Assembly: GCA_051294375.1 (NCBI GenBank) | Contig: CM119271.1 | Span: 3,974,113 to 3,993,311 of the forward strand | Direction: 5' to 3' | Length of the DNA stretch: 19,199 nt | Origin: Paraspadella gotoi | Lineage: Eukaryota > Animalia > Chaetognatha | Shown: one piece after another, positions 142 to 19,199 of the stretch | Position numbering within the stretch: position 1 is the stretch's first letter | Layout of the letters: the number at the start of each line of letters is the position of its first letter | Position numbers and translations under genes: made by a program | Notes under the pieces: generated by a model | What the model was told of the DNA's origin: nothing | Seen by the model: the letters and a program-made list of their open reading frames with translations, nothing else | Database searches by the model: none

Positions 142-3100
142 CTTGGGGGAAATTTGAGGNNNNNNNNNNNNNNNNNNNNNNNNNNNNNNNNNNNNNNNNN
201 NNNNNNNNNNNNNNNNNNNNNNNNNNNNNNNNNNNNNNNNNNNNNNNNNNNNNNNNNNNNNNNNNNNNNNNNNNNNNNNNNNNNNNNNNNNNNNNNNNNN
301 NNNNNNNNNNNNNNNNNNNNNNNGAGAGATAAAGACAGAGAGAGAGAGAATAGACAATATTGATTAATCGCGAATTAAGGCAACTTAAAAATATTTACAA
401 AATTTAATTTGCTTTGAATCTCAACTAGAAACAAAAGTGTGTCTCACATCTCACTCCATTAAATGCTGATTTACTGCTGATTTACTCAAAATATCTCATT
501 GATCGGTTGAACAAACATCATTAAACCTCTCCAACGGACAGTTCACACGGATTCGCTCCTTTTTTGGTATTTTCCAAACCCAACAAGAAAAGAGAGTGAA
601 TAGAAGTGTCAACTCCGGCACGCCCACCTATTCCTGTCTCCGCACCGTCACCCGCGCCGCTCGACGATCCGCCGCCCGCGGCTGCAACAGCCGCCGCCGC
701 CGCCGCCACGGCCTCGCCCTTCTTGGGGCTGTAGAGCATCTCTCTGAGGCCCCTGACGACGCGGTCCCGGTGCCGCTTCTCCGCGTCGAGGCTGCGGCAG
801 CAGCGGTTCAGCTTCGCAGCCTCCACCTTCAGCTTCCGGAGGCTTTCCCACTGAAGAAAAATATGGGAAGGACAAAGAAAGGCTTGTAAGAAATTTATTG
901 TTATTAATTGTTATTATATTTATGAATTGTTGTAAGCCGATGCTAGTGAGTTCCGTTGTTTAAAATTTATATAAAATAATTTAATATAGGATTAAAAACG
1001 TCGAATTTGGGTTCAAGTGCAGTTTTTTTTTATTGAAAACTAATATTTAGATCTTATTTGTCAGATCATCGTTCAGGGTAGTTTTACTAAATTCGACGTT
1101 TTTAATCAATATTTAAACTGTGCACGCGATGACTCTACAAACTAATTTTACATACATGAATATGACCAGTACAAAAATATTCATTCAATAAACAAGCTCT
1201 CCTGACTCCTGAGTATAGTGGGTTAATATGCCTTTATTCATCTCGCTGGACTAAACTAAACTAAACTAAACTAAACTAAACTCTGAACGCTTTTAATACT
1301 CTCCTACATTCTAGTTCATTTACCTTTAGGGTTGTGAAATAAAATTCTAAATCTAAGGAAGAATCTCTTTCATCTTCATGTTCTCTATCTAAAACTGTTC
1401 CTTAATCACGAAAACAAGGAATTTTTCATGCATACTATGTTAAAAATATTATTAATAAACGATTTCATTGAATTATATTTTAAAAACTAATTTACCTGGG
1501 TTCCCAACTGCGACTCCAAATCGCTCACTTTTTCCCTCAGTTGTTTCTCCTTCGCCGTTTCTTCTTTCTCGTTTTCTTTGTTTTCTTTGTTTTCTTTGTT
1601 TTCTTTGTTCTCCGCGTCGGCCATTTGTTGACTCTCCAGCCTTTGACGGAGCGAGACCATTTTGTCTTTTTCCTGGAAATTAAAAAAATCCAAAAAAAGA
1701 TAAAATTATCCATCCATTTAATAAATAAGCTATCTTGACCCTGACTTTGGGCAGACTTGGGTGGTTTAAGGCCTTCATCACACTTACAAGATAATGACAT
1801 AGCAGGTCCCTGCGAGCTTTCAATCAAGATTCTCTCAAGTCTCGTTTATTTACTTCCCCATCAATAATAAGGAATAGTATCTAAAAGAAGACGACTCCTT
1901 TAAAATTATGATAAAATTAAATTGCGTAGATACAATTAAATGAGCTAAAAATGTTTCTGACCCCGTTAATCGTTATCATTATCATTAATCGTTAATCATT
2001 ATCATTAATCGTTATCATTATCATTAATTGTTAATCATTGTAGTCGGGCATTGCCTAGGTTAATCGTTAATCGTTATCATTATCGTTAATCATTATCATT
2101 ATAATTATCATTATCATTATCATTATCATTAATCGTTATTCGTTATCATTTCCACCTTTGTCCAGAGCTGGAACAAAATTAAGGAGCAACGACAACAGCT
2201 AATCTTTGTATAACGACGACAACAACATCAAAAACAACAACAACAAAAAAACAAGAACAACAACAACAACAAAAAAACCCCTCTCACCTGATGAAACCTC
2301 TCCAGCCTGAGATCCAACTGCTGAAGATGCTCCTCGAACTGCGTGATCTTGGCGTCTTTGACGATGACCATTTGCCGCAACTCGTTGCTGCCCTTCTTCA
2401 GCACCCGAAGCTCCAAATCAGCGTCCTCCAACTTCCTCTCCAATTTCTCGGGCTGTTGGTTGCATTCGAGAGTTCGGAGCCGGCCGCTGAATCCAAGCGG
2501 AGATGATCCAAAGAATCAAGGATGTTATAAATTAAATTAAATTAATAACTAAATAAATTAATAAATTATTAATTAAATTAATAAATAAGTGAATAAATAA
2601 ATAAATCAGGTTATCGATAGATCAATCAATCAAATAATTTATCGACCAATCAATCAATCAATCATTGTATCCTTTTAACCATCCATCCATCAATCAATAA
2701 ATCAATCTATCAATCATTAAATCAATTAATTAATCAATCAATTAATCAATCTATCAATCAATAAATCAATTATTCAATCAATCAATCAATCCATCAAACC
2801 ATCAATCAATCCATCGAACAAAAACTCCAAAATAATCTCACCTCATATATTTCTCGAATGTCTCTTTTTCTTGCTTCATCATCGCCAGGATTCTTTCTTT
2901 GTCTCTCAATTCTTCCCTCAAATACCAAAGAGCGGAATCCGTGGAGATGTTTTCTCCTTGATTCTTCAACGTCTCCATCAGCTTATTCTTGTCCTGCAAT
3001 AATAGTTAATTTATAATTAATAACAATGATTAATAAATTTACTAATGGCGGCAATAAATTGCGAAGATTCCCTGAGACAGTTTTTGACCAAAAATTTGCC

Positions 3101-6100
3101 GGCAATGCAGTCAGATGGAATACATTCATTGCACGATTCATTGCAGCCGAGTCTTACTTGCAAAGAATCCTCCATATTTTCTATTCTTCGCTGCAAAACG
3201 TTGATCTTTCGTTCCTAAAAAAACAAAAGACATCATCGTTTGATTTCACGCTATAGCAGAATAGGTTATAAATTTTATAATTGTAAACAATCCTTTGGAA
3301 CCTTGATGTCGTTCGACGTCCGGAATCCGCTGACTTCCGATTCCAAGAGAGACGTTTCCTAATTCGTTGATGCTCATTGCGATTTGATTCAGCAAAACGT
3401 CTTTTTTCCTATCGAGACCAACAACAACAACAAAAAAAACATGAACGGTGATTCCAACGTGTTCACGAGTATTTCTTTTTGATCACGTGATATGACATGA
3501 CTAAAAAACTTGTATTGCATCGAAATTCCGTCTTTTATTCCTCATAGTTTTAGGATTTCCTGAAGTCCCTTAGATTTGAGGTTTTTTTTCTGTGTTAACA
3601 AATGAGCAAATTATGCGAATTATATGCATTTTTAGCGTAAGTGGGACAGACCGACCGACAGACAGACGGACTACAGACAGGCCGACAGANNNNNNNNNNC
3701 CGACCGACAGACAGAACGACTACAGACAGGCCGACAGACCGACCGAAAAGTGACTTTTAGAGTACCTCCGCGAGTAGTCGCGGGGCAACTAAAAATCAAT
3801 TTGTTGATCGCTATATAAATGATTCAAAAACGTAAAATTGATGCTCGAGTTAAATTCGATGATAAAGTGCTAAAACAAAATAGAATAAATCGTGTTCTTC
3901 GGTCGCTTGAAAATCATCGCCCGGTTAGCTCAGTCGGTAGAGCACAGGACTCTTAATCCTGGGGTCGTGGGTTCGAGCCCCACATTGGGCGCGATGATTC
4001 TTTTTCTTGAATTTACAAACTCGGCAACTTACAGACGTTGATATAGAAATTGGACACGAAATATTGATAAATATCGAGTTTTTTTTTGTTACAATCTTCA
4101 AATAAAAACCCTCAACATGAAACCCACCCATTCCTTACCTTAAGCCTTCCCCTGATCTCCTCGGACTCGGCGTAGAGCGACGCGGTGTGTTGATCCTTGG
4201 TGTTGACGGTCTCCTTCAACACCTCCACGTAGGAAGACAAATCCGAGATCTGCTTCTCGAACATCTCAAGTTGCTCCTCCAGGCACGTCGCTCGGTCGCG
4301 CTGCAGTGGGAGGGAAAGGGTGATAATTTTTTTTTTCTTCATCTAACCCGCAAGTTCATTATGTCTAATTGTCTATCTGTTTAAGTACTTTCTTTCTGTT
4401 TCCGCCTGTCTGTCTGTCATCAACCTGTCCTTTAAGTACATGTCTTTTCTTTCTTCTCGCCGATCTTTATATTTTGTTCCTTCATTCCTTTATATATAAT
4501 TATATATATATATGTATTTATTTATTTACGACAGAGATTTAACATTTATTAATATTTATTGAATATTCTTTATTCATTGAATATCTCTGTCGTCCTCTCC
4601 CGTCTCCAAAACCAACCTTCATCTTCAAACCCGTCTTCAGCTCCTCGTGCCGCTCCCGCAGCACCGACTCCTGATCCTGCAGCTGCTCCAGACACTTGAG
4701 GTTCCACGAGTCCTCGACGAGGTCGGGAATGACGCCGACGAGGGAGGCGTGGCGCGTGTCCATCCGGGACATGACCCCGCTGGCCACGCTGCGGGCGTAC
4801 ACCTTTAGTCTGGTAAGTTAGAGAAAGGGGTTGAGGTGAGTCTCGATCGACTGAAGATTTGTATTTAACGATGGGTCAAAAAAAATAGGTGACGTAATTT
4901 TGGTATCTCGAGAATTGGTACTGTGAATAATTAGAATCCAAAAAAATTGGATAAGGTGCTAATTCATTTAATCCCCAGGGCCAGATATGAATTCGGTCTA
5001 AAATAATTTAATTATCATTCCTGGTTTACAAACCGCAAATTTCTGAATTGGCGTTATTAAAATTCAATATTTTTGAAATATTCACCACGACAACTTCACA
5101 AAAATCTCCAAACTCAAAGCAACCCTTTGGCCTATGGCCTTTGGCTTTGCCCCCGACCTGTAAAGTTGCATTCTCAAGGTTTTGTATGTGATGTTCCAAC
5201 ATCCGAGTTGCCCTTCCTTCTCTTCGATTTCCGCTTGGAGCCGGGAGGCCTCGGGGAGCTCACGTTGACCTGGTTGGAAGGACGTTGAAAAAGCTAGGTA
5301 ACGTCGATAATTAGCTCTCATTGTTACAAACTTCGTCCTCTAACCTTTTCCCAAACGATTTGATGATCTTGTCTCAATTCCTCCAACTTTTGGCTGCTGC
5401 TCTCAGTTCCTTTTTCAGTTCCCCGATCTCTTTTCACCTGAAAAGAAATTATTATTTAATTAACTAAATATTTATTATTTATTACGATTTTATCATTAAT
5501 TATTTATTTTTAATTATCAAATAATAAATCAATGATTCAATGAGTAAATAAAATTCAATGAATAAAGAAGGAATTAATGATATAAAAATGAATTAACTAA
5601 TGAAAAATTGGCCCGAATGATTTAATCAATGAAGAAAAAATGAACGAAGGAATGAATTAAATATGGAATTGATATAGCAGGGTGGTGTATTAACTAATTA
5701 AAGCTAATTAATTAATTAAATACTCAATAGACGATTCAAACGAATCACCGTCGGAAAGAACGAATCGATAAACCCCCCTCTCCCCCCCCCAAAAAAAAGA
5801 AAGCCAACCTTGACGATCAACTCGGCTCGAGCTTGTTCTCGCCGCCTCCGTCGTTTCCACGGAGACGCGCAACCTCTCCACGCCACGACCTCTCATCCAG
5901 CTCTCCTCGTTCTCCTTCTCTCTCTCCTCTCTCCTTCTTTCCTTCCTCCTTTCTTCCTCTTCTTTCTTCTTTCCATCTTTGTCTTCTCGAAGCGTCTCCG
6001 AAATTTCGTTCATCGTTGTCAGCATTTCGTCACGGACCTGGAGAGTGAGAGAGGGAGCGAGATTGGTTGATCGTTTTGATTTAACTTATCGTCCCAGCGA

Positions 6101-9100
6101 GAGAGAGAGGTAAAGAAGAATAAGAGAAAGAAAAAGAAAACGTGGAAGGACGACCGACCTGCAGAACGACATCCCCTTGGCGGCTTTCATCTTGGCGGCT
6201 TCGATGTCGTTCTTCACTCTTATCTTAGAGGCGTCCACTTCGGCGAGACGAGACTCCAGTTCCTCGATTACCTGGAGAAATCCGAGCCGGAATCAAAGGA
6301 TGGATTTATTTTTTTAAATTAAGATCGGGGACACGGTTTATTTATTGGCAACGACGATTTATTTTAATGTGAGACGAACGCGATTCGGCTCTTATGTTGC
6401 AAAATTTCGCGCTGATGAAGGCTCGAACATGGAGCCGAAACATGTCCGTCTATGGTGGACTAAAATCACACCAACCGTTCATCAGCGGCCATTGGTGCCG
6501 GAGGCAAGTCATTCGCCTCCCAACCCAAAGGTCCGGGGTTCTAGCCCGTTGGCCGCCTGGCAGTTAAGAGGGACGGGGCGCTTAACCCGCCTGTAACACG
6601 GTGTTACAGCCTGATCCGAAGCTCAGGGACTATTTATATTGAACGGTTCTGTCACTAACACGTAACAATAATTACTGACTCTTCACGTCTTCATTAAAGT
6701 AAATGGTTGTTGCCAATAAATAAACAAAAAAGAAAGGATTTTCTCGTCATAAAACTAGATCATAACATGTTACTATAAATAAACATTAAAGAAGATTATC
6801 CCTTAATGAAGTTTAGCAATCACTTTACTAACGTAGAAGGCGATAGTAAATGTAAATAAATCATCTGGAAATTTGAGAAAAAACAATTAATCAAAATTGT
6901 TTTCGTTTCTCCCACCAATAATTCCTGACATACCTTCAACTCTTCAACCTCCAGCGCTTCGTTCGCCCTCATCTCCTCCTCCAGTCTCTCCACTTCCAAC
7001 AGCTTGAGTTCAATTTCCGCCTGAAACAAAACAATTTTATTATTAATTATTAATTATTTATAGATTACGCGGACCCAAATAAAAGTTCCCTACCGACCGT
7101 GTAATTTTTGAATGACGATTGATTTATTCGTGGGCGAATGATAGTATGAAACTTTTAAAGCAACGGATCAAAATTAAATACTTAAAAATAATCACGCGAC
7201 GACATGCAAATGAGATTAAGGCACTCGAATCTTCCCAACCTGTTTCTCCTTGTATTCTAAATTGACTCCCTCTTCAATGTCCAAATCCCTGAGGAGCGAC
7301 TTGACGCTTTTAAGGTCGTCCTTTCGCGCCGCTCGCTCCTTCTTCAGCTCCGGCGACCAAAAGGTTTTGATGCTGGAGTTTTTGTCCGAGAGGCGAGTCT
7401 TGACGATCTCCAGTTGGCGGCGAATCGATGATCCCTCGCGCTGCTGGTCGATGATTTGCTTCTGAAGATCGAGCATGTAACTGTAGGAGAGAGAGAGGTC
7501 AGGTGGACCGCGAAATAAAGTGACCATTGCTGGGGGAAACTTTGAAATCTTTGGTTCTTCCAAGACTCTCAGACTCTCACCGCCCGCTCTCTGTGCTGCT
7601 CCTGTTGGCTAGAAATTCGGCGGAACCTTCCGAAGCGACTCCTTTGAGGCTTTGGCTCGCTCCAGCCGACGTCGTCGCGGGGGTAGCGATGGCACCAGCG
7701 ACCTCGGAGTTATCGACTGCGGATCTGTTTGAATAGTAATTTAGTATATCAGGGAAATACATATTTGGTTTTTGAATTAGAAAAAAAAAAATAAGAAGAA
7801 CAAAAAATGTAGTGTGTAATTAAATATCAAAAATATTTTTGATTATATTTGTTAACTTTTCAAGTATATTAAATAACAATATCGTTGACTATTAAACGTC
7901 GTTTTCTTTCCCTCGGCGCATGATGGCACCTGTCATCGTCGAGAGACTCTCTGCACCTGGAGACGTTCGTCAAGGACCTGGCGGAGCGGAGGTTGTTGAA
8001 GGATCTGGAGGAAGTCGGTTGCTGAACGCAGTAGCCTGGAGGTTGGAAGAGGGGCGTCGAAATAGTAACGCTGAGTCTCGTGCTCGGTAATTTATGTACT
8101 ATAACTATTAACTATTATAACTAATCCATGAGTATTTTCGCACCCAATTGTCAAAAACACCAATACGGGAACAGCCTTTAGAACGTAAGAAACTATTTAA
8201 AGACGTGATTCATATCTATTATCGAGACGAAAAACGACAAACTACAACGACGACAACAAGGACGACAACAACAACGACGATACAACGACAACAACGACAA
8301 CGAGGATCGTAACTTACCCGCGGAATCGTCGTCTCCGTCCTCCATGCTCCGCGCAGAGAGACGTCGCAAGGCCGTCATCTCTTTCTCCACGGAAAAGTTT
8401 CGGGCGAGAGTAAAGTGTTTGGGCGAGGAAATCGCCAGGGCAGAGTTGGGGTCAAGATGGAATCTGAGCATGGCGGGGGGGGAGGGGGAAATGGGGGAGA
8501 AATCGGATGGAATTCGATGGAATTTTGGAGAGAGAAGATATATATCCAATGGACATTGATTGTTATTAGTAAATGATAATATTAGTCAATCTTATCTTGA
8601 TTATAAATTCATACTAAAGGACTAATTTTGATTAAATTAAGTTAAAAAATTAATAATTAATAATAAGTTAACTAATTTAACTAATTTAACTAAATTAACT
8701 AGATTAATTAATTCAACTAAATATACTAATCTAACTAATTTAACTAATTAAATTGATTTAACTGTAGTTCAACCTGGCGCCGCAAATGGTGGGTCGGGAG
8801 ATCTTCGAAGGAGCCGTCGGGGTCTTCGACGCGGGCGGCGGGGCCTCGGCCTTATCGGCGTCGTTGTCGGCCCCGTCGTCGGCCAAGGAGGTGTCGGCCA
8901 AGTTGTCGGGCAAGGATGCGTCGAAAAAGTTAAAGGCTTCGAGGTCGACGTCCGCGTCGGCGGAGGCAAAGGCCTCGTCGAATGGGTTGGCAAGGAAAGG
9001 GTTGACGGAACGGAGGCCCTAGAGATTATGGCGGGAATTTTTGAAAAATTTTAAAGCGTCAAAATGTTTAATAATTTACATGCAATGCAATTTTTTTTTT

Positions 9101-11842: not shown

Positions 11843-11885
11843 TTAAATAAAAAGGAAAAGAGGACGTCACGTCACGTGATGACGT
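11843..11885 (-). promoter_or_regulatory. putative proximal promoter of the Id/emc gene (TATA-like, CRE and E-box motifs)
   Basis: TATTTAA on minus (11843-49) about 60 bp upstream of the ATG. Overlapping GACGTCAC, GTCACGTGAT and TGACGT at 11863-11885. Confidence 0.5.
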
Positions 11886-12266
11886 TTGTCGTCTCGCGAT
11901 CGTCTGTGTGACGTTTGGCTCCTCTTGTTTTTATGTCGCATGGTTTACTGTTCTTCAAAAGAAATCGTTTTTATTTAAATTTGCTTAAAAAATATGGAAT
12001 CTAAATAACATAGCATATTGTTTTGATATTGTAACCAATTTATGCTTAGAGATAATTGACTTAGCTTTCCTTTTAAAATTAAATTATAGTCTCAAACTTA
12101 TTATTATTACATGGATTCTAATGACAAAAATAGTTTTACACCCGCGTTAGTGTTTGTGAAGAAGTAGTTTTTTTTTCTCGGCGATTAAATAAAATCTGTT
12201 CCATCTCAGTGCGAGCGTTCTGAAAAAATCACGACCTTCATGGCTGGGGACAGAAGGAATTTCCAT

Positions 12267-12284
12267 GAGAGAGAATGTGGAGAG

Positions 12285-12346
<62 letters not shown>

Positions 12347-12364
12347 GAGAGAGAGAGGAGAGAG
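12267..12364 (+). repeat. (GA)n microsatellite (duplicate at 17723-17825)
   Basis: Direct reading. Confidence 0.9.
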
Positions 12365-13310
12365 TTGAGCATAATAATCGAGCTAATAACCGGCATGTAT
12401 TGATTAAATCGGAAAAAATGACATTAAGACCACACTTTCTTTTAGAGACCGGATTTTAAAAATAATTAAAAAAATAAACGAAAAGTAACTTTTAATTGAG
12501 ACATAATCTAAGTAGTCTCTCTCATGTGTCATGAAACGACGAACAACCATAATAAAGTCTGCATTATTAGTTTATTAGTCGAAAGAAATGGAAAAACACA
12601 TTTTTTCCAAATGTGTTAGTTTTAGGAGAGGAAAAAGAAAATATTACGCTATGTCCTAAGCTCTATGATGGAGGAAAGGTGTGAAAGGTGGGGGGGTCTG
12701 CATCGAGAGAAGAGCACGCGACGTTTGAGCGTGCCGAGATTGGAACTCTCTCTCTGCTCTTCTCTTGTTCTTCTCTCTCTCTGACCGCTTCGCTGTTCGT
12801 ACGAGAAAGAGCACTTTCTCTTCCTTCTTTCCTTCTACATATTATTTTCCGTATTAATCAAGTCTGTGCTACCGAAAAATGCATTGTGTGTTTCTAAAAA
12901 TTGAAATTGAAATTTTTATATTTTTATATTTTCCTATTTATATTACTTTTATCTTAAATTTATTATTTTCTGACAAATTCCTTATTCTTTAAAATGCCCT
13001 AATCCAAATGCAAAAATTATGAACTCATTAGACATTTGGTTTTTTGTCAGTTATTAAATTTGATTATTTCACTGCTAGGAGAATTCCGACACTTTTGCGG
13101 TTTTATTTAACAATGTGAACATCGCACAAGTGTTTTGTGTCTCTCTAAACTTAAATTAATTATGTTTTCAATTCAATTGTAGAATATCCTTAAATTGTAA
13201 ATGTTTTAGTTTAGAAAACTTGCGGTATTTAATTTTACCACATGAATTTAAAACCAAGTTTACGACCACCAGCTCCAAAACATAAAGCTATCACTAAAAT
13301 GTACTTAGCG

Positions 13311-13504
13311 CCAATGAAACTGACCAATCACGCGTGAGCTTTGAGGAAGAACACGAGTCTACATCGACCAATTCGACGACGAGAACAGGATGGGTAACTG
13401 CTATTGGCGATCAGGCCAATTTCCTTAGCTCGGCGCAGCGGGAGGCAAGAAAGTTCTTAATTCTGACCAAATTCACAACACGGCGTTTTCATAATGCAAC
13501 CAAT
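13311..13504. promoter_or_regulatory. CCAAT-box (NF-Y) cluster, copy 1
   Basis: CCAAT/ATTGG at 13311, 13324, 13368, 13403, 13416 and 13500, followed by a GC-rich GGCGTC tract. Confidence 0.55.
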
Positions 13505-13894
13505 CGGGATCAAGGAGACGAGATGGAATCTCCGGAAGTGCGCTCTGATAGAACGCTGTGGTGCTCTTGGAAATGAACAGCCACGGCGTAGGCGTCGTCA
13601 GCGGCGTACGGCGGCGTCGGCGCTACTTTCGGCGTCGGCGCCGTTTGCCTTCTTCGCTAAATATGTTCATAAAATTTAATGTAAAAATCAAGGAATAACA
13701 TTTCCTCCGATCAGTTTTTGACGCATTACGATTCAAACAAAGATCTTGCCAGTCTGTGAAATTGTTTCACATTTGAGATTTTTACTGTCTTTTTATTTGT
13801 GTAAGCCTCCAGGGATACGAGAATGTTCTGTGACTGTGGTCAGATTTGGCCAGCGGAGACTGTTCTATCAGTTTTTGACATGGAATCTCTCTCT

Positions 13895-17320: not shown

Positions 17321-17746
17321 AAGGAGAAAGAGATACGTCAGTCACGGTGAGTTTACGTCTTGTCGGCGATCTGTGTGACGCTTTGGATCCATCTTGTTTT
17401 ATATGTCGCATGGTTTTCTGTTTTCCAAATTTAATCGTTTTATTTAATTCTGCTTAAAAACAATGGACAGATATACAGTAATTGTTTTATAGTACAATTT
17501 GTCGTTAGAATACATTTGAGCTTTCCTTTTTAAAATACAATTCATAGTCTACAATTAATTATTCATTACATGGATTCAATGACAAAAATTTTATACACCC
17601 CAGTGTTTGTGAAGAAGTAGATATTTTTTTTTTCTCGGCGATTAAAATAAAATCGTGTTCCATTCTCAGTGCGAGCGTCTTGAAAAAATCACGACCTCAT
17701 GGTGGGGAAGAAGGAATTCCATGAGAGAGAATGTGAGAGAGGAGAG

Positions 17747-17785
<39 letters not shown>

Positions 17786-17790
17786 AGAGA

Positions 17791-17823
<33 letters not shown>

Positions 17824-18190
17824 GACGTATGAGGCATAACTAATTAATCGAGCTAATAACCGGCATGTATTGATTAAATCGGAAACAAATGACATTAAGA
17901 CCACACTTTCTTTTAGAGACCGGATTTTAAAAATAATTAAAAAAACAAAAACGAAAATAACTTTAATTGAGCGATAAACTAAGAGTTTTCAATCTAATTC
18001 ATGAAACACGAACAAAATCAGTCGCATATGTTTATAGCGAAAGAAATGAAAACACATTTTTTCCCAATGTTTAGTTTAGGAGAGAAAAAAAAATTGTGTC
18101 GAAGCTCTATGATGGAAGGAAAGATGGGAAAGGGTGGGGGGGGTTGGCATCGAGAGAAGAGCACGCGAGTTTTGAGCGTGCGAGATGGAA

Positions 18191-18229
<39 letters not shown>

Positions 18230-19199
18230 GACCCGCTCTCGCTGTCGTACGAGAAAGAGCACTTTCTCTTCCTCTTCCTTCTCCATATATTTTCCGTATA
18301 TAACTCAATCTGTGCTACGAAAAATCGCATTGTGTTTCTAAAAATTGAAATTGAAATTTGTTAATTTTTATATTTTCTATTTAATTACTTTTTTAAATTT
18401 ATCATTTTCTGACAAATTCCTTAATTCTTTAAATGCCCTAATCCAAATGCAAAAATTATGACTCATTAGAATTGTGGTTTTGTCAGTTTATTAAATTTGA
18501 TTATTTCCGCTAGGAGAATTCCGACACTTTTGCGGTTTTCATTTTAAACAAGTGAACATCGCCACAGTGTTTTTCTCTCTAAACTAAATTAATTATTTTC
18601 AATTCAATTGTAGAATCTGTAAATGTAAATGTTTTTAGTTTAGAAAACTTGCGGTACTTAATTTTTCCTCCATGAATAAAACCAATTTACGACACCAGTC
18701 AAAAACATCAACTATCCTAAAATGTACTACGCGCCAATGAAACTGACCAATCACGCGTGGAGCTTTGAGAAAACACGAGTCTACATCGACCAATCCGACG
18801 ACGAGAACAGATGGAGAACTGCATTGGCGAGAGGCCAATTCTAGCTCGCGCGCGGGAGGCAAGAAGTCATTTTTCTGACCAATCACAAACACGGCGTTTT
18901 CATAAGCAACCAATCGGGAGCAAGAGACGAGATGGAATCTCCGGAAGTCGCTCGAGAACCGCTGTGGTGTGGAAATGAAGCAGCCGAGGCGGCGTCAGCG
19001 GCGTCGGCGGCGTCGGCGGCGTCGGCGCTACTTTCGGCGTCGGCGCCGTTTGCTTTCTTCGCTAAATATGTCATAAAATTTAATGTAAAAACAAGGAATA
19101 ACATTTCCCCGATCAGTTTTTGACGCATTACGATTCAAACAAAGATCTGCCAAGTCTGTAAATTGTCTTCATTGAGATTTCTTCGTCTTTTTATTTGTG
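17321..19199 (+). repeat. ~1.9-kb direct duplication, copy 2 (runs to window end)
   Basis: Colinear with 11851-13801. Confidence 0.95.
18734..18914. promoter_or_regulatory. CCAAT-box (NF-Y) cluster, copy 2
   Basis: CCAAT/ATTGG at 18734, 18747, 18790, 18823, 18835, 18879 and 18910, several in RRCCAATC context. Confidence 0.6.

What the first reader, a model, noticed from the sequence alone, without database searches (positions are those of the whole stretch)
6336..6725. Composite 390-bp non-coding mobile unit: inverted arms + hammerhead ribozyme + tRNA-derived Pol III module
Seen: ~40-bp terminal inverted arms (6336-6376 / 6686-6725) enclose a hammerhead (6409-6449) and a tRNA-like A/B-box module with three hairpins (6485-6640). 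The left arm is a contiguous antisense copy of the hammerhead 3' half plus the right terminus. In the sense copy these parts are separated by ~235 bp bounded by a CGTCT direct repeat (6447-51 / 6686-90) that starts exactly at the predicted cleavage site. Known: Penelope-like pLTRs carry minimal hammerheads and often form inverted structures, and SINEs have tRNA heads. Inference: either a SINE landed in a PLE remnant, or this is a chimeric retrozyme/SINE family mobilised as one unit, with a 5' end set by self-cleavage or by Pol III.
Basis: partly seen in the sequence, partly recalled or inferred. Interest (0 to 1): 0.8.

Follow-up and report, generated by a model that had tools for sequence, protein, structure and literature searches.

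The report
Twister-bearing solo LTR inside Penelope relic
This 390-base stretch of an animal gene is not one mobile unit but two nested pieces: a very abundant 235-base repeat, likely the leftover end of a tiny retrotransposon that joins a tRNA-like promoter to a predicted self-cutting "twister" RNA, sitting in what is likely a small Penelope-type relic with a hammerhead motif.

Summary
The arms, hammerhead and tRNA-like part are real, but public contigs split the unit into three tiers. The arms are near single-copy. The hammerhead (6409-6449) recurs at many loci with unrelated flanks. The stretch 6451-6685 is a family with roughly thousands of copies and sharp ends. Among the longest listed pieces, only two single-copy-depth contigs, read as this locus, join hammerhead and insert, so the chimeric-family idea fails.

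The host is likely an ordinary inverted Penelope-like remnant. The insert is not a normal SINE: TA...CA ends, a 4-bp duplication (CGTC), no tail, and a tRNA-Gly-like part starting 34 bases inside fit a solo LTR of a Helenus-type TRIM.

They form a type-P5 twister-like core: descriptor 1 of 20,000 shuffles (post hoc), best window hit of a model built from phage sequences (E 0.044), and family letters repair stem P5. Rfam does not detect it, P2 is one base short, no two-LTR copy was seen, and cleavage is untested. I found no paper describing tRNA-promoter LTRs with twisters.

The parts
6328..6392 (-). Inverted copy of the Penelope-like end: hammerhead 3' half (GAAA changed to GAAT, so likely dead) plus the AATAAA-bearing 3' end, running at least 8 bases past 6336
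   Evidence: Alignment. A second single-copy locus matches 6328-6392 with 8 differences in runs X1, X2 and X9.
6409..6449 (+). Minimal type I hammerhead motif of the Penelope kind; predicted cut after C6446, predicted to need a dimer
   Evidence: Pairs and descriptor, 1 of 5,000 shuffles. Repeated in the genome with its own loose ends at 6409/6410 and 6447/6449.
6447..6450 (+). Left target-site duplication, CGTC
   Evidence: one copy only in the uninterrupted left arm.
6451..6685 (+). 235-bp high-copy repeat with TA...CA ends, likely a solo LTR of a Helenus-type TRIM
   Evidence: Depth and loose ends at 6451 and 6685 in four runs; no T4 run on the + strand.
6485..6557 (+). tRNA-Gly(CCC)-like segment, likely a Pol III promoter (B box at 6537-6547; A box degenerate)
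   Evidence: ARAGORN at lowered threshold; fold z -2.03.
6559..6634 (+). Type-P5 twister-like fold: P5 6559-65/6628-34, P2 6586-88/6568-71, G6572-A6573, T1 6574-76/6616-18, P1 replaced by self-complementary GGCGCT 6577-82, predicted cut T6583/A6584, T2 6589-90/6621-22, P3 6591-98/6602-09, P4 6610-14/6623-27
   Evidence: family letters.
6473..6648 (.). 9-bp perfect inverted pair 6473-6481 / 6640-6648 enclosing the tRNA-like and twister-like parts
   Evidence: marginal, 25 of 1,000 shuffles reach it.
6686..6689 (+). Right target-site duplication, CGTC
6690..6725 (+). Sense 3' end of the Penelope-like remnant with AATAAA motifs (the right arm)
   Evidence: near single-copy depth.
6272..6933 (-). 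Likely intron of an ERC/ELKS/CAST gene that holds the whole structure; both ribozyme motifs lie antisense to the host transcript
   Evidence: GT/AG and frame by eye. Pfam Cast matched 2 of 6 exon pieces; ERC-family homologues at 56% identity or less.

Best explanation
An abundant 235-bp repeat (6451-6685) has inserted, with a 4-bp duplication, into what is likely a small inverted Penelope-like remnant carrying a minimal hammerhead, and this repeat is likely a solo LTR of a protein-free Ty3/gypsy-dependent TRIM that joins a tRNA-like Pol III promoter to a predicted type-P5 twister ribozyme. SHOWN by sequence or reads: separate repeat tiers, sharp ends, the duplication, TA...CA ends, no tail, and the pairings of the twister-like core. 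INFERRED: Pol III starts near 6485 in the 5' LTR of a full two-LTR copy and reads through, since there is no T4 terminator. The two twisters would pair through their self-complementary GGCGCU segments and cut at the U6583/A6584 equivalent, giving a unit-length RNA that would circularise as plant retrozyme RNAs do. A gypsy reverse transcriptase and integrase would copy and insert it, and recombination or short cDNAs would leave solo LTRs like this one. That the duplication starts right at the hammerhead cut site is taken as chance. Both motifs are antisense to the host gene, so they would not cut its pre-mRNA.
For: Nesting: three depth tiers and separate loose ends (before 6451 in 73/80/66 contigs of X1/X2/X5; behind 6685 in 143/146/96/37; before 6410 in 42/39/23; behind 6449 in 30/32/15). 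Of 24 listed pieces (518 in all, longest kept), 2 bridge 6449-6452, both at single-copy depth. A second locus holds arm plus hammerhead half with no insert. LTR reading: 4-bp duplication; flank consensus reads ATAT-like on both sides; animal Helenus have 4-bp duplications, tRNA-like LTRs up to 323 bp and solo LTRs (PMC10886601); Helenus-3_MeDo-LTR has TA...CA ends. Twister: all of P3, P4, T1 and T2 pair; descriptor hit in 1 of 20,000 shuffles and 0 of 120 loci holding only the linear motif; best window hit of a model built from 17 viral-contig sequences, 12 bits, E 0.044; the three listed family variants in P5 all make Watson-Crick pairs, and no listed variant falls in the core; GGCGCU homoduplex -8.3 kcal/mol; twister stays active without P1 (PMC5408937 abstract). 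Penelope reading: hammerhead features match PMC4209133; inverted truncated copies with a one-sided tail are typical (PMC8557442).
Against: Rfam finds no twister at E<=10 on 6540-6660. The descriptor was written after seeing the window and recovers only 2 of 6 Rfam-confirmed twister-P5 loci. The model's E-value is rough and weak, and one of its 17 rows (L250) has a short P1 zone and looks like tandem P1-type twisters. P2 has 3 bases against 4, and the first T1 pair is swapped relative to the Rfam consensus. The predicted monomer fold forms a rival hairpin over the core, z 0.07. No two-LTR copy, primer-binding site or polypurine tract was seen, and no 6685-to-6451 joint is among the 15 of 51 joints shown. 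The left end is TA, not TG. Box A lacks TRGCY. The tRNA call is weak. 32 of 73 variant rows were not shown. No Penelope coding sequence is linked to the remnant here.
Confidence: 0.58

Rival explanations
1. Nested insertion of a tRNA-bearing solo LTR (plain Helenus type) whose twister-like part is a chance or dead fold; the element would use the ordinary TRIM cycle without self-cleavage.
For: No Rfam twister match; short P2, swapped T1 pair, rival hairpin; weak model score.
Against: Both pseudoknots and P3/P4 pair, with compensatory swaps against the Rfam consensus shown; 1 of 20,000 shuffles; family letters repair P5.
Confidence: 0.17
2. The insert is a tRNA-promoter, twister-bearing SINE-like or non-LTR retrozyme element (analogous to the Schistosoma hammerhead SINE-like elements), copied by a non-LTR or Penelope reverse transcriptase.
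For: No two-LTR copy seen; very high copy number; non-canonical left end. Hammerhead plus Pol III SINE-like elements are known (PMC6765202 passage), and twisters occur in non-LTR elements (PMC8501958 passages).
Against: Both ends are fixed and lie away from the tRNA start (6485) and from the predicted cut (6583/6584); no tail; 4-bp duplication; no tandem head-to-tail joint among those shown.
Confidence: 0.14
3. The insert is a non-autonomous DNA transposon (Crypton-, Dada- or Sola-like) that captured a tRNA-derived piece; the 9-bp subterminal inverted pair would be its recognition site.
For: Starts with TATGG like CryptonS termini (PMC3212892); 9-bp subterminal inverted pair as in Dada (PMC3706591); one X9 contig has an inverted copy of the 5' end after 6484.
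Against: CryptonS has TATGG at both ends and this has it at one; Dada makes 6-7-bp duplications inside RNA genes; no terminal inverted repeats; the 9-bp pair arises in 25 of 1,000 shuffles.
Confidence: 0.07
4. One reading: arms, hammerhead and tRNA module move as one 390-bp unit with a 5' end set by hammerhead cleavage or Pol III.
For: The duplication starts exactly at the predicted hammerhead cut; the whole unit folds strongly, z -7.3, mostly from the arms.
Against: Arms near single-copy; hammerhead and insert have separate ends and very different depth; only two single-copy-depth contigs bridge them among the listed pieces. Runs X1 and X6 carry an allele about 22 bases shorter right of 6405.
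Confidence: 0.03

Closest known systems
Animal Helenus TRIMs / TRIMp3 (Kojima 2024, PMC10886601; main text parts 1-4 of 6, passages, supplement parts 1, 5, 7, 9 of 11 and two motif searches)
   Same: tRNA-like segment inside a short LTR-sized unit, GGTTC B box, 4-bp duplication, CA right end, solo copies; a TA left end occurs in Helenus-3_MeDo.
   Different: Twister-like core after the tRNA part (the paper's text mentions ribozymes only in a reference title); box A lacks TRGCY; no T-rich run after the tRNA part; no shared family motif in the supplement (motifs split over line ends could be missed); two-LTR form not seen here.
Plant LTR retrozymes (Cervera, Urbina, de la Pena 2016, PMC4918200; passages)
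   Same: Ribozyme inside the LTR of a non-coding element, 4-bp duplications, solo LTRs, proposed gypsy dependence.
   Different: Type III hammerhead in plants versus a twister-like fold in an animal; tRNA-like promoter here; circular RNA not shown here.
Type-P5 twister ribozyme (Rfam RF02684; consensus seen; PMC5408937 parts 1-2 of 7)
   Same: Order P2'-GA-T1'-P1-UAA-P2-GC-P3-P4-L4 (UCCGAAGC against UCCCAAGC), both pseudoknots, P5 closing the ends.
   Different: P1 reduced to a 6-base self-complementary segment, P2 one base short, first T1 pair swapped, no Rfam match.
Minimal hammerheads in Penelope-like pseudo-LTRs (Cervera and de la Pena 2014, PMC4209133, parts 1-2 of 4; Craig et al. 2021, PMC8557442, passages)
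   Same: Extra base between positions 9 and 10.1, G-C base of stem II, short stem I, palindromic helix III, many dispersed single copies, inverted truncated copy with a one-sided tail.
   Different: Only about 150 bases remain; no reverse transcriptase gene could be linked.
Schistosoma hammerhead SINE-like elements and Perere-3 twister variants (PMC6765202, PMC4918200, PMC8501958; passages)
   Same: Pol III or tRNA part plus a ribozyme in one repeat; twisters with weak P1 in retroelements.
   Different: Those are tandem or non-LTR elements whose ends follow the cut site; here the ends are LTR-like and the cut would be internal.

Membership tests
Helenus (TRIMp3) | tRNA-derived sequence inside the LTR | tested here: met
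   tRNA-Gly-like 6485-6557, 34 bases inside the family end; weak call, 19 of 200 shuffles at the loosest threshold.
Helenus (TRIMp3) | 4-bp target-site duplication (animals) | tested here: met
   CGTC at this locus. Other copies were seen only as flank consensus, so a fixed length is not shown.
Helenus (TRIMp3) | TG...CA LTR ends | tested here: inconclusive
   TA...CA; one animal Helenus consensus has TA...CA.
Helenus (TRIMp3) | Box A TRGCY/YGG and box B GGTTC | tested here: inconclusive
   Box B present at 6537; box A lacks TRGCY (paper says 'most' LTRs have it).
Helenus (TRIMp3) | Two LTRs with primer-binding site and polypurine tract between | not testable with these tools
   No genome held; no such joint among 15 of 51 shown.
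LTR retrozyme | Type III hammerhead in the LTR | tested here: not met
   No hammerhead descriptor hit inside 6451-6685; a twister-like fold instead. It works like a retrozyme but is not a member as defined.
LTR retrozyme | Self-cleaved circular RNA | not testable with these tools
   Only contigs were available.
Twister ribozyme type P5 | Stem P4 and pseudoknots T1, T2 | tested here: met
   5, 3 and 2 pairs.
Twister ribozyme type P5 | Stem P2 of 4 bp | tested here: inconclusive
   2 adjacent pairs plus a third with a bulged A; 5' strand 3 bases.
Twister ribozyme type P5 | Stem P1 | tested here: not met
   Cannot form in one molecule; GGCGCU could form 6 pairs in a dimer. P1 is dispensable in vitro (PMC5408937 abstract).
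Twister ribozyme type P5 | Conserved GA, UAA, GC and L4 AAGC bases | tested here: met
   Present in register with the Rfam consensus; one conserved G-C pair of T1 is swapped to C-G.
Twister ribozyme type P5 | Rfam RF02684 match | tested here: not met
   None at E<=10.
Twister ribozyme type P5 | Self-cleavage at U/A | not testable with these tools
   Needs an assay.
Penelope-like pseudo-LTR hammerhead | Minimal core, extra base 9/10.1, palindromic helix III, short helix I | tested here: met
   against PMC4209133.
Penelope-like pseudo-LTR hammerhead | Link to a Penelope RT/GIY-YIG gene | not testable with these tools
   No genome held.
tRNA-derived SINE | tRNA head at the 5' end | tested here: not met
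   Family end lies at 6451, head at 6485.
tRNA-derived SINE | A-rich or simple-repeat tail (recalled definition) | tested here: not met
   Sharp end at 6685 followed by mixed flanks, agreement 0.42-0.46.
   2 of 24 listed pieces bridge, both at single-copy depth.

The most novel reading that the evidence does not exclude
The 235-bp family is the LTR of an animal 'twister retrozyme': a Pol III-driven, gypsy-dependent TRIM whose two LTR twisters lack their own P1 and cut only as a dimer, releasing a unit-length RNA circle. It would merge the Helenus promoter trick with the plant retrozyme cycle through a different ribozyme class, at thousands of copies per genome.
Probability: 0.45. Interest if true: 0.75.

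Novelty: new variant of a known kind. Interest (0 to 1): 0.55.

Why it matters
The insert matters more. If confirmed, it gives twister ribozymes a role in LTR retroelements of animals and suggests a dimer-only twister that works as a switch, like dimeric hammerheads. It would also show that the retrozyme design arose again with another ribozyme and a Pol III promoter. It is directly testable with short RNAs. Repeats of this kind would be filed as SINEs or tRNA pseudogenes and missed by Rfam. Unchecked notes of this scan report the same design in other families of this genome, so this locus adds a family, not the first sighting.

Tried and rejected
No whole genome is held, so no genome-wide BLAST was possible; contigs of public runs stood in. 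No RNA holder was listed, which says nothing on expression. Run X10 (organism B) gave 0 laid records, which is no proof of absence.

Relatives of the insert elsewhere: 0 matches in viral contigs and metagenomes. 31 prokaryote matches to a 17-mer are chance: about 69 expected, longest alignment 31 bases. 128 loci from twister-variant patterns gave 1 with a paired P4, none with the full core and no BLAST hit. No look-alike was found among earlier findings by sequence or nearby place, and none by words.

Rfam: whole window only tRNA-Lys; 6540-6660 nothing; 6380-6560 four sub-threshold matches. RF02684 in one bacterial genome and 14 controls rang nowhere. A second hammerhead on the minus strand at the CTGATGA near 6479-6485 was rejected by eye, since no GAAA follows the partner strand. 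Crypton, Dada and Replitron readings were checked against paper passages and fit poorly. A 5-bp duplication was rejected because copies start at T6451, and in the subset ending at 6686 the fifth flank base is mostly C; this is indirect. The host taxon stayed unresolved: ERC-family hits at 56% identity or less. Literature searches for the twister plus tRNA plus LTR combination and for hammerhead plus SINE chimeras listed no such paper. The library lacks most subscription journals, and Repbase/Dfam could not be searched.

Full report
Setting. The window is animal DNA. Minus-strand exon pieces match Pfam Cast (2 of 6 pieces) and ERC/ELKS proteins at 56% identity or less, so the taxon is unresolved. 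By GT/AG and frame, the finding lies in an intron at 6272-6933 (inferred). No whole genome is held. I therefore used contigs of public runs of the same organism: 9 of 11 listed runs hold the stretch, from 3 studies.

Observation. The arms are real: 6336-6369 and 6692-6725, 31 of 34 matching. The left arm continues, uninterrupted and antisense, into the hammerhead 3' half. The hammerhead 6409-6449 has a 3-bp stem I, CTGATGA plus one extra A, a 5-bp stem II, GAAA, the palindrome ACATGT and GTC. My descriptor hits it once in the window and in 1 of 5,000 shuffles; Rfam scores it far below threshold. These are the features of Penelope-type minimal hammerheads, which show no or low cleavage in vitro unless dimeric (PMC4209133, parts 1-2 of 4). 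The tRNA-like part is weak: default ARAGORN misses it, a tRNA-Gly(CCC) pseudogene appears at threshold 86 or lower, and 19 of 200 shuffles get a call at 80 (no control was run at 86).

The unit is nested, not a family. Laying four runs on 6100-7000 (6,928, 13,808, 2,440 and 903 records) gave three tiers. In X1 the flanks have depth about 14, the arms 25-40, the hammerhead bin 9,642 and the bins within 6472-6657 from 529,000 to 1.1 million. Summed depth is not copy number. At 6458-6481 the ratios to single-copy depth are about 8,500, 1,250 and 1,750 in X1, X2 and X9, so 'thousands' is an order of magnitude only. Loose ends with mixed AT-rich flanks pile up before 6410 and behind 6449, and separately before 6451 and behind 6685. 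On 6320-6490 (226, 252, 36 and 0 records), 24 of 518 pieces were listed, longest kept. Two bridge hammerhead and insert, both at single-copy depth, and I read them as this locus. A third ends at 6453 with its contig and cannot count. This fits the inverted truncated copy with a one-sided tail described for Penelope-like insertions (PMC8557442 passages). X1 and X6 carry an allele about 22 bases shorter somewhere right of 6405. It probably lies in the hammerhead, because X1's contig does not break there as X2's does (inference).

The insert is not a normal SINE. Copies begin at T6451 and end at A6685, with no tail. The duplication is CGTC on both sides, present once in the uninterrupted left arm. 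The tRNA-like part starts 34 bases inside, and there is no T4 run on the + strand. This fits a solo LTR of Helenus, TRIMs with tRNA-like LTRs that make 4-bp duplications in animals (PMC10886601: text parts 1-4 of 6, passages; supplement parts 1, 5, 7, 9 of 11). Most Helenus LTRs I saw start with TG; Helenus-3_MeDo starts with TA. Five of six motifs from our element were absent from the supplement and the sixth was a 7-mer in a fungal LTR (line breaks could hide matches). I reached this reading before consulting earlier findings (note). The defining two-LTR form with primer-binding site and polypurine tract was not seen; no such joint is among 15 of 51 shown. Crypton, Dada and Replitron fit worse (passages), and the 9-bp subterminal inverted pair is marginal (25 of 1,000 shuffles).

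The hidden ribozyme. Unchecked notes on other families of this genome mention twisters behind tRNA-like boxes in LTRs. They are leads, not support; none matched our sequence. I tested our copy. Against the Rfam Twister-P5 consensus printed, 6559-6634 has GA at 6572, T1, UAA at 6583, GC, an 8-bp P3, a 5-bp P4 with loop TCCGAAGC, T2, and a 7-bp P5. P1 is replaced by GGCGCT, which can pair only with a second copy (-8.3 kcal/mol). A descriptor written after seeing the window hits this one place, 1 of 20,000 shuffles, 0 of 120 loci with the linear motif only, and 25 of 121 loci fetched with a twister pattern, but only 2 of the 6 that Rfam confirmed among 20 tested. A model from 17 of 26 parsed viral-contig sequences (near-duplicates dropped; 5 Rfam-confirmed) ranks 6569-6626 first in the window at 12 bits, rough E 0.044, with the next at 7.7. 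Of five variant places listed in 6557-6634, three lie in P5 and each makes a Watson-Crick pair (6632 and 6633 in about 99% of depth); two lie at the P3 tip; none lies in the core (32 of 73 rows not shown). Against it: Rfam finds nothing at E<=10, P2 is one base short, one conserved T1 pair is swapped, and the monomer fold has a rival hairpin with z 0.07. No relative was found in viral, metagenome or prokaryote collections.

Mechanism (inferred by analogy with PMC4918200 passages, and PMC10886601). Pol III would start near 6485 in a 5' LTR and read into the 3' LTR. The two twisters would pair through GGCGCU and cut at U6583/A6584. The unit RNA would then hold one whole permuted LTR, which explains how the 34 bases upstream of the promoter are kept. 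It would circularise and be copied and integrated by a gypsy element, leaving 4-bp duplications and many solo LTRs. One of these landed in an old Penelope-like remnant; its position at the hammerhead cut site occurs once and is taken as chance. My odds: nested rather than chimeric 0.95, solo LTR about 0.75, selected twister about 0.7, whole account 0.58.

Novelty. Each part is known: Penelope hammerheads, Helenus, LTR retrozymes with hammerheads in plants, twisters in non-LTR Perere-3 (PMC8501958 passages), and hammerhead plus Pol III SINE-like elements in Schistosoma (PMC6765202 passages). Twister activity without P1 is from the abstract of PMC5408937 (parts 1-2 of 7 read). Preprint 10.64898/2026.07.22.740005 (part 1 of 5) links animal non-LTR retrozymes to Penelope elements, and PMC11167929 passages found no reads ending at a Penelope hammerhead cut site. 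Searches listed no paper on a tRNA-promoter LTR with a twister; only listings were seen for papers not named here, and Repbase/Dfam were not searchable. The insert is a likely new variant of a known kind, already noted in other families of this genome by unchecked notes. Interest 0.55.

Noticed in passing
window 11852-13801 and 17321-19199: A direct duplication of about 2 kb at 84.8% identity with many small gaps; it may be a segmental duplicate, a repeat or a noisy second assembly of the same stretch.
   Followed up: no
window 3919-3992 +: Intact tRNA-Lys(CTT) gene, antisense and between exon pieces of the ERC/ELKS gene.
   Followed up: no
window about 2270-7500 -: Exon pieces of an ERC/ELKS/CAST active-zone gene, 56% identity or less to named proteins.
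   Followed up: partly
window 6406-6490: Runs X1 and X6 (two studies) carry an allele about 22 bases shorter here, probably within the hammerhead; X2 has a small insertion near 6404.
   Followed up: partly
window 6484, run X9: One contig continues after 6484 with an inverted copy of the insert's first 15 or so bases; it could be a fold-back artefact or two opposed copies with a deletion.
   Followed up: no
PMC10886601 supplement, Helenus-2_SyJa-LTR and Helenus-2_SyUm-LTR: By eye these gall-wasp LTR consensus sequences hold a hammerhead core 3' of the tRNA-like part; the paper's text does not mention it. A tRNA plus hammerhead LTR may thus sit unremarked in published data.
   Followed up: no
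window 6580-6591 and the Ajax LTRs of PMC10886601: A 12-base stretch over the predicted twister cut site also occurs in both Ajax LTR consensus sequences; chance is not excluded.
   Followed up: no
L250 1-197 -: A viral contig with closely spaced tandem twister-like units of about 55 bases.
   Followed up: no
window 6409-6449 family: Across loci only the 40-base hammerhead core is shared; length changes cluster in loop II (6425-6432), and the downstream flank consensus is T-rich followed by an AATAAA-like run.
   Followed up: partly
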